Shown one piece after another: positions 15,001 through 18,000 of a stretch of 64,000 nt of DNA. Numbering within the stretch: the stretch's first letter is position 1; every line of letters starts with the position of its first letter. Position numbers: made by a program. The stretch comes from Chrysemys picta bellii (Eukaryota), in the NCBI RefSeq assembly GCF_011386835.1, contig NC_088794.1, forward strand, positions 84,630,001 to 84,694,000, given 5' to 3'.

Positions 15001-18000
15001 TTTTTCTTTTGATATCTCAATCACTGTCAGTATCTCATTTTTATAACCTGAAAACTGCAGGTCCAGGGTAACTATTTAGCTAGTCTTCCTCTCCATACAT
15101 TAGCACAACCAGAGTGCACTGCGCCATGTACTGCTGTTCTTGCCATTCTGTGTCTATGTCCTCCAGCTATGAGATATCTGCCCAGGTTTTCCCAGAATAC
15201 ATGGAAAACCATAGTAAGGCAAAGTGGAAGATATGGATGCCCAAATAACTATGATGGCAGAAAAGCTGCTGTATGAACACAAACGGAAGGGTGTTACTTG
15301 TAACTAGCTAAGGTTACCATACCTCTCACTGGTTAAATCATAGTTAAAAACTTTAAGGTATGCACAGCTTTGCGTGGCTTGTAACTGTTAAGTGTGGACT
15401 GAGAAAAAGGCTTTTTTTAGTGTCAACTGGGTGTTGAAGTTCACATCTTACTGAAGTGAACAGAATAGGAAGGAGCAAGTCCCCCTACCTTACTGTTTCT
15501 GGTACTGGCTGGAAAAAGTTTTCTGTAAAGCTGATTTAACAGAATAGGCATCGTTAAAGACAAAAACATTGCTAAAGACAAGTTAAGGCTCTGTAGAAAA
15601 GTGGGAGGGGAGAGAAGCAATAATGATGGATTCACTCTAAAAATGCAAGAATCCATGATTATTTCATGCCTAAGAGATTGCCCCTTCCCCTTAAATCCAG
15701 TCTGGTACTGGCAAGTTGAAAATGACCACAATCAGCAGCATCTATGGCAAAAAAAATAGAGAGGTAAAGGAAAACTTCATCACAATATAAGAGATATTCC
15801 AATCATTACATCTATTAGAAAGAAGAAAGTTGGTAAACAAGCGTGTCTTAAAGGTAATTAAAAAAATTAATAATTAACTAAGAAGCAACCATAGTGACAA
15901 TCTATAGCTTACAATGAATACGTAGGAAAGAAATGGCCTGTAAGTTACTGAAAGGCAAGTTCTACACTTTTACATCGCTGCAGACAAAGCACTTTAAAAG
16001 TAATCAATTTTAAAACATATCTGAGCTTTCAACAGCTTTTGTTATTTTAAATTGGATAACTTGAAAGTGATTTACTAGTATTAAATTTAACAAAAATAGT
16101 CAGATGTTTCTTCCAACAATAGTTACAGTTCCTGCTTTCTCAGGAATTCAAATACAAGTAACGCCATGATCCTCCAGACACTTATGCATGTAAATAATTC
16201 CAGCTGGTTTAATGGGATTACTCAGATGTATAAATTTAAGTATATAATTAATGCTTGGTCTACATGTAAAAGTGATATCAACATAACTATGTCAGTCAGG
16301 GTGTGAAAACCCCCTCCACATCCCTGACCATCATAGACATGCTGACAAACTCATTCCCACTCTTTCCCTCTCCACACCCCCCAGACACATACACACACTG
16401 TAAAAGAGGGCTTCTGTCACGGTAGCTAATGTTGTCCAGAGAGGTGGTACTCCTACACCGACAGAAAAACTTCTATTGATGTAGGCCACTTCTACATGAG
16501 GGGGCTAGGTCAGCATAAGCTCTGTAACGTAGATATAACCTAAGTGTTTGCAGGATCGGTGCTCCAGTCCTACTCTCCAATACAATATTAGAATCTTGGT
16601 GCCAAGAAATAAAATGGCATCTATAACAGAGATCATTGTGGAAGAATGCAGCTACATTATAAAATGTCATACCATTTTTCAGCACTGGTACTAGCAACAG
16701 TTTTAAGTACTCCTGTAGACTGAGCTCAAGTGTTTTTTGCACTATGTCTTGAAGCCCCTTATCTAGTAAATAGTTAACTATCTAGAGTCTAGTGGCTAGA
16801 TCCTGCAACTGGATCCATCTAGGCACAACCCATGCGCCTAAGTGGGTAGATCCCCTTTGACTTCAATGGGGTTCTGTGTTGGCAGACCTGCACCTGGGCA
16901 GATTCAGATGTGGGATATAATCCTAAACCCCACACAACAGGAGCTTGCCTACCACAGGCAGCCAGGTGAGTAGCAGCTTCAAATATCTGACACACTGGGG
17001 TACAGGGCTCCCATAACATCCAACACAGCCAGTGCTGAAATAGCACCACTACTGGCTGCTCAAGATTTAGGTCTTGAAACAGCTCTGGAAAGGACAACAG
17101 AAAGTTCTTAACAGATTCCTAAAACGTTAGAAATAGTTAGGAAAGGGATAGATAAGAAGACAGAATATATCATTATGCCACTATATAAGTCCATGGTATC
17201 CCCCACATCTTGAATACTCGAAAAGAAGAACAGGAGTACTTGTGGCACCTTAGAGACTAACAAATTTATTAGAGCATAAGCTTTCGTGGACTACAGCCCA
17301 CTTCTTCGGATGCATCCGAAGAAGTGGGCTGTAGTCCACGAAAGCTTATGCTCTAATAAATTTGTTAGTCTCTAAGGTGCCACAAGTACTCCTGTTCTTC
17401 TTTTTGCGGATACAGACTAACACGGCTGCTACTCTGAAACCTGTCATCTTGAATACTGTGTGCTGTTCTGGTCACCCATCTCAAAAAAGATGTATTGGAA
17501 CTGGAAACTGCAGACAAGGGCAACAAAAATGATTAGCGAGACAACAGTTTCCATATGAGGAGAGATTGAAAAGACTGGGATTGTTCAGCTTAGAAAACAG
17601 ACAGCTGAGGGGGGATATGGTAGAGATTTGTAAAATCATGGATGCTATGGAGAAAATGAATAGGGAATTGTTATTTATCCCTTTATCCCTAACACAAAAA
17701 GGTGGGGTCACCTGACGAAATTAATAGATAGCAAGTTTAAAACTAACCTAAGGAAGTACTTCACACAGCGCACAGTCAACCTGTTGAACCCATTGTCAGG
17801 AGATGATGTGAAAGCCAAAAATATAATTGGTTCGGGAAAGAATTAGATAAATTCATGGAGGATAGGTCCATCAATGGCTATTAGCCAAGACTGTTCAGGG
17901 ACACAACCCCGTGCCCTGGGTGTCCCTAACTTCTGACTACCAGAAGCTAGGACTAGACATCAGGGGATGGATCTCTTGATAATTGCCCTGTTCTGTTCAT

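What the first reader, a model, noticed from the sequence alone, without database searches (positions are those of the whole stretch)
17219..17444. Perfect 184-bp spacerless palindrome from a Penelope-like insertion with a 13-bp TSD
Seen: 92-bp arms with zero mismatches, centred at 17312/17313, plus a 40-nt unique tail, all between 13-bp direct repeats inside a CR1. Established: Penelope-like elements often insert with an inverted partial terminal repeat, and long perfect palindromes form cruciforms and dsRNA. Inference: very recent or homogenised by gene conversion; a candidate siRNA/ADAR source and fragile site.
Basis: partly seen in the sequence, partly recalled or inferred. Interest (0 to 1): 0.65.

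Follow-up and report, generated by a model that had tools for sequence, protein, structure and literature searches.

The report
Head-to-head Penelope-type retroelement insertion
A 226-bp piece of a Penelope-type jumping gene landed inside an older LINE repeat of a turtle-like genome as two mirror-image copies, which is the ordinary signature of this element class rather than a new kind of feature.

Summary
Arms 17221-17312 and 17313-17404 are complementary at 92 of 92 positions with no spacer. A 40-nt one-sided tail (17405-17444) follows, and a perfect 13-bp direct repeat flanks the insert. Uninterrupted LINE copies in the same window carry the 13-mer once, so it is a true target-site duplication.

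The layout matches the published "typical Penelope" architecture: a head-to-head inverted truncated copy, a 30-40-bp tail at one end only, and a short duplication. Each arm also carries a minimal hammerhead-like motif with the features described for Penelope elements, apart from one core change, C for U at position 4. Three predicted proteins are translated copies of the same repeat, two of them from the hawksbill turtle. All stop resembling it exactly where the tail ends, so this is a dispersed retroelement with a fixed 3' end.

No link to a Penelope reverse transcriptase was obtainable, and Rfam finds no hammerhead. Recency is only loosely bounded. The dsRNA, editing and fragility ideas are untested. 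Verdict: a real, ordinary instance of a known architecture, of low interest.

The parts
17123..18082 (+). Host: 5'-truncated 3' fragment of a CR1-type LINE, interrupted by the insert
   Evidence: 5 other copies in the window align at 71-79% over 17123-18082. One paralog (10308-11000) overlaps an ORF carrying RVT_1 (9637-10614). The relatives of that ORF are bird and sea-turtle LINE RT proteins with AP-endonuclease domains. The name CR1 is from recall; no source name says so.
17206..17218 (.). Left copy of the 13-bp target-site duplication
   Evidence: 13 of 13 identical to 17445-17457. It is single in the paralogous LINE copies.
17219..17220 (.). Two junction bases (CG). They are either untemplated or the first two tail bases of the inverted copy with one mismatch
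   Evidence: offset 93 mismatches and offset 94 pairs.
17221..17312 (-). Inverted copy of the element, tail-less, 92 nt
   Evidence: 92 of 92 complementary to 17313-17404.
17313..17404 (+). Direct copy of the element, 92 nt
17405..17444 (+). One-sided 40-nt tail. Its end is the 3' end of the element
   Evidence: One search shows it is unique to the right side; 3 of 3 related predicted proteins lose similarity just after the residues encoded at 17428-17442.
17445..17457 (.). Right copy of the 13-bp target-site duplication
17312..17351 (+). Minimal hammerhead-like motif. Helix I 17312-17315 with 17348-17351; core box 17316-17322 (CCGAAGA, C instead of U at position 4); extra base 17323; helix II 17324-17329 with 17334-17339, loop 17330-17333; GAAA 17340-17343; palindromic GC 17344-17345; U16.1 17346; H17 17347. 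The predicted cut lies between 17347 and 17348
   Evidence: this motif and its mirror are the only matches in the window to a descriptor written from the text of PMC4209133 with position 4 left free. None of 100 simulated windows matched. The strict core gives 0 matches.
17274..17313 (-). The same hammerhead-like motif in the inverted copy
17363..17422 (+). Stem-loop in the element RNA. 17363-17374 pairs with the AC-rich 17411-17422, and the end of the tail-less copy falls in the loop
   Evidence: pair I7: 12 nt, 92% complementary. It is also present in the MFE and centroid folds. The monomer fold as a whole is no better than shuffles (z 0.19).

Best explanation
This is a short insertion of a Penelope-like retroelement (PLE) family that is dispersed in turtle genomes. 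It contains only the 3'-terminal 132 nt of the element RNA, the part that carries the minimal hammerhead motif and the site where reverse transcription starts.

The PLE endonuclease nicked the two strands of an old CR1-type LINE 13 bp apart. That step is inferred from the 13-bp duplication. One target strand primed cDNA from the distal start site, so that copy includes the tail. The mirror-image copy begins 38-40 nt further in and lacks the tail. It was made either by priming from the other target strand at the proximal start site or by self-priming of the first cDNA.

The two copies were joined head to head at the self-complementary hexamer ATGCAT, which lies in the 5' strand of hammerhead helix I. 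That gives a spacerless palindrome whose arms were identical at birth.

Shown: the anatomy, the true duplication, the fixed 3' end shared with other copies, and the hammerhead-like motif. Inferred: the enzyme, the priming order and the joining step.

In this context the hammerhead is very probably inert. It has C at core position 4, there is no tandem partner on the same strand, and it is locked into a 92-bp perfect hairpin. The insert has no evident host function.
For: Anatomy:
- 92 of 92 arm positions pair, with no spacer, a 40-nt one-sided tail and a 13 of 13 duplication.
- The 13-mer is single in uninterrupted paralogs.

Published architecture:
- PMC3846280 (passages): the typical Penelope structure has an adjacent inverted pLTR, a 9-bp duplication and an optional 31-bp tail on one inverted pLTR. 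Palindromes at inverted junctions are interpreted there as self-priming.
- PMC11167929 (parts 1-2 and passages): the purified Anolis PLE cleaves and extends both target strands, and the tail is the sequence between two RT start sites. The hammerhead cut is 26 bp past the start codon and the RT start is at 111-118. That puts the RT start about 82-92 nt past the cut, against 97 nt here (17347 to 17444).

Hammerhead-like motif:
- It has the non-core features listed for PLE minimal hammerheads in PMC4209133: an extra base between positions 9 and 10.1, a G10.1-C11.1 pair, a 6-bp helix II, a 4-bp helix I and a palindromic 15.2-16.2.
- The only 2 matches in the window are the two arms, and 0 of 100 simulated windows matched.

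Family behaviour:
- A phmmer search with the 36 codons open to the 3' end found 3 proteins at E <= 0.001. Two are named as unnamed protein products of Eretmochelys imbricata, on different contigs.
- All 3 lose similarity just after the residues encoded by the tail end, and one is 5'-truncated at a different point.

Other points:
- Not a TIR element: the termini match at 3 of 20 positions.
- CpG observed/expected is 0.66 in the insert against 0.09 and 0.23 in the flanks, so the insert is younger than its host repeat.
- Host taxon: a KBTBD4 exon is 98% identical to a cluster represented by a turtle protein, and a LINE RT ORF is 86% identical to a Caretta caretta product.
- PLEs were detected in all 23 vertebrate genomes studied, a soft-shell turtle among them (PMC4350176 passages). 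Minimal hammerheads are reported in turtle (PMC4209133).
Against: - The strict hammerhead core (CUGANGA) is not present. The motif matches only with position 4 left free, and I freed that position after seeing the sequence.
- Rfam reports no hammerhead family at E <= 10, either in 1701 nt (9 matches, none hammerhead) or in 161 nt (3 matches, none hammerhead).
- No sequence link to a PLE RT/GIY-YIG gene was found. There is no other copy of the unit in the 64-kb window. No protein of 236-2000 aa carries the repeat-derived peptide (weak evidence). The unit has no intact ORF start.
- The nick sites do not show the 5'-ATT-3' preference reported for the Anolis element.
- All 3 related copies carry the tail, so its optional nature is seen only within this insert. 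The query included the tail, which biases that result.
- The monomer RNA fold is no more stable than shuffles (z 0.19; 119 of 200 shuffles fold as well).
- No eukaryotic genome collection and no Repbase or Dfam were available, so the family name and its consensus are unknown.
Confidence: 0.75

Rival explanations
1. The insert is a non-PLE retroposon, such as a SINE or a LINE 3' fragment mobilised by a LINE. Its cDNA snapped back on itself, or was twin-primed during target-primed reverse transcription, and that produced the palindrome.
For: A 13-bp duplication, a fixed 3' end and variable 5' truncation fit any TPRT element. No PLE protein link was found. The strict hammerhead core is absent.
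Against: - There is no poly(A) or microsatellite tail at 17444.
- The unit shows no similarity to the 5 or more LINE copies in the window, 3' ends included.
- Twin priming inverts a different, upstream segment, whereas here the two arms are the same segment.
- The 38-40-nt one-sided tail and the hammerhead-like motif with PLE-specific extras would both be coincidences.
Confidence: 0.13
2. A simple 132-nt insertion came first. Its 5' 92 nt were duplicated in inverted orientation later, by a DNA-level event such as fork template switching or fold-back repair of a break.
For: Such events do make spacerless inverted duplications; this is established knowledge, not tested here. The self-complementary ATGCAT at the centre could seed a fold-back.
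Against: The inverted copy sits exactly between the left duplication copy and the element's 5' end, with only 2 extra bases and no loss of flank. That requires a break precisely at the old junction. PLE insertions are already known to be born in this form.
Confidence: 0.05
3. The second arm is an assembly or read artefact, a fold-back chimera.
For: Perfect palindromes are a known artefact class. PMC8557442 notes that complex PLE structures trouble assemblies. No reads were available.
Against: The structure is short and internally asymmetric, with a tail on one side only. It lies wholly inside a perfect 13-bp duplication whose single-copy state is seen in paralogs, and the host repeat is collinear on both sides. 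A chimera would not place itself between the duplication and the element's 5' end.
Confidence: 0.04
4. It is a fold-back DNA transposon or MITE.
For: It is a long inverted repeat flanked by a direct repeat. A genuine MITE of that kind lies at 35116-35451 in the same window.
Against: The termini of the insert are not inverted repeats, matching at 3 of 20 positions. The palindrome is offset by a 40-nt tail. A 13-bp duplication is longer than those of the common cut-and-paste superfamilies (recalled). Related copies share the 3' end but differ at the 5' end.
Confidence: 0.01

Closest known systems
Canonical endonuclease-containing Penelope-like elements (Penelope/Poseidon, Neptune, Nematis clades) and their inverted pseudo-LTR insertions, e.g. 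Pen2a_Av of Adineta vaga (PMC3846280) and Poseidon_Ac of Anolis (PMC11167929)
   Same: It shares the head-to-head inverted copy adjacent to the direct copy and a palindromic junction. It has an optional 30-40-bp tail on one side only and a short duplication (9 bp in Pen2a_Av, 13 bp here). A minimal hammerhead lies upstream of the 3' end at a similar distance: about 82-92 nt in the Anolis element and 97 nt here.
   Different: No ORF and no direct pseudo-LTR pair is present, only 92 and 132 nt of the 3' region. The hammerhead core has C at position 4. The ATT target preference is not seen. No sequence homology to these elements could be tested.
Minimal, dimer-dependent hammerhead ribozymes of metazoan PLEs (Cervera and De la Pena 2014, PMC4209133)
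   Same: It shares the extra base between positions 9 and 10.1, the G10.1-C11.1 pair and a long helix II (6 bp). It also has a short helix I (4 bp), no real helix III, and a palindromic 15.2-16.2.
   Different: Position 4 of the core is C, not U. Self-cleavage has not been tested. The motif sits inside a perfect hairpin with its own antisense copy, not in tandem with a second sense copy.
Animal non-LTR retrozymes, proposed to be non-autonomous PLE derivatives (bioRxiv 10.64898/2026.07.22.740005, passages only)
   Same: They are short, non-coding, hammerhead-bearing units. They are reported in 4 of 5 reptile genomes sampled, with a mean consensus of 176 bp in Reptilia.
   Different: Retrozymes are defined by tandem direct repeats. 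This insert is a single inverted pair and no tandem copy is seen in the window.
L1-type twin priming or 5' inversion
   Same: It also gives an inverted 5' portion within one duplication-flanked retroelement insertion.
   Different: In twin priming the inverted part is a different, more 5' segment, and the element ends in poly(A). Here the arms are the same segment and there is no A-tail.

Membership tests
Penelope-like element insertion | Linked ORF with a telomerase-like RT and a GIY-YIG endonuclease, in the copy or in the family's master | tested here: inconclusive
   There is no other copy of the unit in the window. No protein of 236-2000 aa carries the repeat-derived peptide. No eukaryotic genome or repeat library was available.
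Penelope-like element insertion | Inverted 5'-truncated copy immediately adjacent, head to head, with a palindromic junction | tested here: met
   92 of 92 positions pair, with 0 nt between the arms.
Penelope-like element insertion | 30-40-bp tail present at one end only | tested here: met
   17405-17444, 40 nt (38 nt if CG at 17219-17220 counts as tail), absent from the inverted copy.
Penelope-like element insertion | Short target-site duplication flanking the whole complex | tested here: met
   13 of 13, and single in paralogous uninterrupted LINE copies.
Penelope-like element insertion | Hammerhead ribozyme motif in the pseudo-LTR | tested here: inconclusive
   The minimal hammerhead architecture is met with position 4 left free: the only 2 matches in the window are the two arms, and 0 of 100 simulated windows matched. 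The strict core gives 0 matches. Activity was not tested.
Penelope-like element insertion | Fixed 3' end among copies with variable 5' truncation | tested here: met
   3 of 3 related predicted proteins diverge just after the tail-encoded residues. One starts at a different internal point.
Penelope-like element insertion | AT-rich target with 5'-ATT-3' at the nick (reported for the Anolis element only) | tested here: not met
   There is no ATT at either edge of the duplication. This is a preference of one element, not a defining feature of the class.
Rfam hammerhead families | Covariance-model match | tested here: not met
   no hammerhead family at E <= 10.
TIR DNA transposon / fold-back MITE | Inverted repeats reaching both termini next to the duplication | tested here: not met
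   The first 20 nt match the reverse complement of the last 20 nt at 3 of 20 positions.
MIR2084 microRNA precursor (Rfam RF03679) | Score at or above the gathering threshold of 100 bits | tested here: not met
   65.8 bits on both strands. The score comes from the long perfect hairpin.

The most novel reading that the evidence does not exclude
The insert may be a natural record of two-strand target-primed reverse transcription by a PLE. Each target strand would have used a different one of the element's two RT start sites, which would explain a tail on one side only. The two cDNA 3' ends would then have annealed at a self-complementary hexamer in hammerhead helix I.

If this is general, one-tailed head-to-head PLE palindromes would come from double priming rather than from self-priming on an antisense template. 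The family would then be a short, non-coding, hammerhead-bearing PLE parasite that was still mobile fairly recently in slowly evolving turtle genomes.
Probability: 0.25. Interest if true: 0.45.

Novelty: already known. Interest (0 to 1): 0.2.

Why it matters
For annotation, this is a clean, minimal example of the Penelope insertion signature in a turtle-like genome. Its true duplication can be proved from paralogous empty sites. Such structures are easily mislabelled as hairpin miRNA precursors, as the sub-threshold Rfam hit here shows, or as assembly errors.

For mechanism, its asymmetry fits the two RT start sites and the two-strand extension seen in vitro for an Anolis element. The tail-less arm ends 38-40 nt inside the tailed arm. 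A census of such inserts could therefore test how PLE inverted repeats arise, which the literature read here still calls undefined.

A 184-bp perfect palindrome could be a fragile site or a dsRNA source, but nothing here shows that it is either.

Tried and rejected
- Rfam scans at E <= 10 found no hammerhead. The only strong match, MIR2084 at 65.8 bits against a threshold of 100, is a generic long-hairpin effect and was rejected.
- blastn of the 132-nt unit against the window gave only the two self matches and 8 short chance matches of 11-17 nt with E >= 0.92.
- A full-text search for a 15-nt stretch of the motif found 0 papers.
- 'Penelope' + 'turtle' + 'hammerhead' found 3 papers, 1 of them relevant.
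- The protein word-index search could not take the element's reading frame: 36 aa is under the 40-aa minimum, and the longer stretch contains a stop.
- The HMMER library search with the 36 aa gave 3 hits.
- A follow-up for long proteins carrying the peptide found none.
- Two papers were not held: Pyatkov 2004 and Lunse 2017.
- An alternative hammerhead register, with a 3-bp helix III at 17343-17345 / 17350-17352 and a cut after 17353 (seen in the fold), was rejected because it leaves no helix I.
- No structure prediction, complex prediction or atlas search was relevant.
- The bacterial/archaeal genome, phage, plasmid and E. coli collections were not searched, because they cannot hold this vertebrate repeat.

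Full report
**1. The observation**

Reading outward from the centre between 17312 and 17313, all 92 positions pair. The first mismatches are at offsets 93, 95, 97 and 100.
- The arms are 17221-17312 and 17313-17404, with no spacer and ATGCAT at the centre.
- On the right only, 40 further bases (17405-17444) belong to the insert.
- The 13-mer CATCTTGAATACT flanks the whole at 17206-17218 and 17445-17457, 13 of 13. It cannot be extended on either side.
- Two bases, CG (17219-17220), lie between the left repeat and the left arm.
- As single-stranded DNA the insert folds at -114.3 kcal/mol, and none of 200 shuffles does as well.
- The window has no N.

**2. The direct repeat is a true target-site duplication**

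I removed the insert and one repeat copy and blasted the rest against the window. Of the 7 non-self matches, 4 were other LINE copies spanning the junction uninterrupted. In the alignment, the two paralogs I had put in register (10330-10470 and 5400-5540) carry the 13-mer once, running straight into the right-flank sequence. The other two rows were mis-registered by my coordinates and are uninformative.

The host is a 3' LINE fragment, about 17123-18082, 71-79% identical to 5 other copies in the window.
- One of these paralogs overlaps an ORF with RVT_1.
- That ORF's relatives are bird and sea-turtle RT proteins with AP-endonuclease domains. The highest identity is 86%, to a Caretta caretta product.
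- I call the host CR1-type from recall; no source name says CR1. The abstract of PMC4316615 (search listing) states that CR1 is the most abundant family in birds, crocodilians and turtles.

**3. The organism**

One exon at 42180-42947 (minus strand; BTB/BACK) is 98% identical to a KBTBD4 cluster whose representative is from the turtle Carettochelys insculpta. With the LINE result and the repeat relatives below, I take the window for a turtle's. It is not human.

**4. What the insert is**

Its termini are not inverted repeats, matching at 3 of 20 positions, and there is no A-tail or microsatellite. The layout is a head-to-head inverted copy, a palindromic junction, a tail of 38-40 nt on one side only and a short duplication. 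This is the architecture described for Penelope-like elements.
- PMC3846280 (passages) describes the "typical Penelope structure" of Pen2a_Av. It has an adjacent inverted pseudo-LTR, a 9-bp duplication and an optional 31-bp tail on one of the inverted pseudo-LTRs. It notes an abundance of inverted-repeat structures with palindromes at the junction, read as self-priming.

**5. A hammerhead-like motif**

PLE pseudo-LTRs carry minimal hammerheads (PMC4209133; parts 1-2 of 4 read). [quoted passage not shown]

The right arm carries exactly this at 17312-17351; coordinates are under parts. There is one departure: the core box reads CCGAAGA, so position 4 is C instead of U.

I wrote a descriptor from the paper's text.
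- With position 4 free, it matches only the two arms in the whole window, on both strands.
- It matches none of 100 first-order Markov windows of 64 kb.
- With the strict core it matches nothing, this element included.
- I relaxed position 4 after seeing the sequence, so this is supportive rather than decisive.

Rfam finds no hammerhead family at E <= 10. Both arms carry the same C, so it was already in the template. In this context the motif is very probably inert. There is no tandem sense partner, and it is buried in a 92-bp perfect hairpin.

**6. Geometry**

For the Anolis element (PMC11167929; parts 1-2 and passages):
- The hammerhead cut lies 26 bp past the start codon.
- Reverse transcription starts at 111-118 in an AC-rich stem-loop, about 82-92 nt past the cut.
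- The tail is the sequence between two RT start sites.
- The purified protein cleaves and extends both target strands.

In this insert the tailed end is 97 nt past the predicted cut (17347 to 17444) and the tail-less end is 57-59 nt past it. A stem pairs 17363-17374 with the AC-rich 17411-17422. The monomer fold as a whole is not better than shuffles (z 0.19). The ATT target preference of the Anolis element is not seen at the nicks.

**7. Relatives**

There is no other copy in the window. Only one frame is open to the 3' end of the unit, with 36 codons at 17335-17442. A phmmer search of 1.84 billion representatives with it gave 3 proteins at E <= 0.001: P0173, P0174 and P0175, at 76-88% identity.
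- P0173 and P0174 are unnamed protein products of Eretmochelys imbricata, on different contigs. P0175 comes from an unnamed contig.
- All are short predicted ORFs that are evidently translations of repeat copies.
- All three lose similarity just after the residues encoded by the end of the tail.
- P0175 enters the repeat at a different internal point, after LINE-endonuclease-like residues.

The family is therefore dispersed, with a fixed 3' end and variable 5' truncation, as expected of a target-primed retroelement. No protein of 236-2000 aa carries the peptide, and the unit has no intact ORF start. The family may be non-coding. This would fit the proposal that animal retrozymes are non-autonomous PLE derivatives, found in 4 of 5 reptile genomes sampled (preprint 10.64898/2026.07.22.740005, passages). 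No tandem copy is seen here, however.

**8. Age**

Arms made in one event are identical at birth, so perfection does not need gene conversion. No change in 210 sites (92 + 13 pairs) bounds per-site divergence since insertion at about 1.4% with 95% confidence. At the slow rates recalled for turtles, that still allows some 10-30 million years. CpG observed/expected is 0.66 in the insert (7 CpGs) against 0.09 and 0.23 in the flanks and 0.28 in the window. The insert is therefore clearly younger than its host repeat.

**9. Mechanism**

This part is inferred.
- Staggered nicks 13 bp apart opened the target.
- cDNA primed on one strand started at the distal site and includes the tail.
- The mirror copy started 38-40 nt inside it. 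It arose either from the other strand at the proximal site, as the in vitro two-strand extension allows, or by self-priming followed by endonuclease resolution, as the older literature proposes.
- The copies joined at the self-complementary ATGCAT.

This single insert cannot choose between the two routes.

**10. What stays open**
- Membership by homology, the family consensus and the state of core position 4 in it.
- Read-level confirmation of the second arm.
- Any transcription, small RNA, editing or fragility.
- Supplements were closed, and those of PMC4209133 list the turtle minimal hammerheads, which may include this family.
- The papers of Pyatkov 2004 and Lunse 2017 were not held.

**11. 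Verdict**

This is a real and well-defined feature, and an ordinary instance of a published architecture.

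Noticed in passing
window 35108-35459: A second near-palindrome has 165-nt arms at 98% with a 20-nt spacer. The element, 35116-35451, has termini beginning CAGGGGTCGGCAAC and is flanked by the 8-bp direct repeat GTCTAGAG at 35108-35115 and 35452-35459. It looks like a hAT-type fold-back MITE (superfamily from recall). It is unrelated in sequence to the finding and lies between the two KBTBD4 exons.
   Followed up: partly
window 32519-33313 and 42180-42947, minus strand: These are exons of KBTBD4: Kelch repeats, and BTB/BACK. The BTB exon is 98% identical to a cluster represented by Carettochelys insculpta KBTBD4. 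Only the single exon was searched.
   Followed up: partly
window 19000-21000: A CpG-island-like block with GC 57-75% lies about 1.6 kb to the right of the palindrome. ORFs in it have no Pfam match. It is possibly the promoter or first exon of a neighbouring gene. Whether the palindrome is transcribed is unknown.
   Followed up: no
window 17254-17371, both strands: Rfam MIR2084 (a moss microRNA precursor family) scores 65.8 bits, E 1.5e-14, below its 100-bit threshold. A perfect palindrome reads the same on both strands, so the score is identical on both. This shows how such inserts can be mistaken for hairpin RNA genes.
   Followed up: yes
window 3463-4128, 5393-6560, 10308-11000, 22202-22864, 37532-37713: Several other fragments of the same LINE family are present, 71-79% identical to the host copy. 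ORFs with RVT_1 or endonuclease domains lie at 9637-10614, 38106-38912 and 38900-39610. The copies at 3.8-4.1 kb and 5.4-5.7 kb lie in opposite orientation (pairs I3-I6).
   Followed up: partly
window 17396-17404 versus P0173, P0174, P0175: The window copy encodes three phenylalanines where all 3 related copies have two. That is a 3-nt length difference in the pyrimidine run, exactly where the tail-less arm ends.
   Followed up: no
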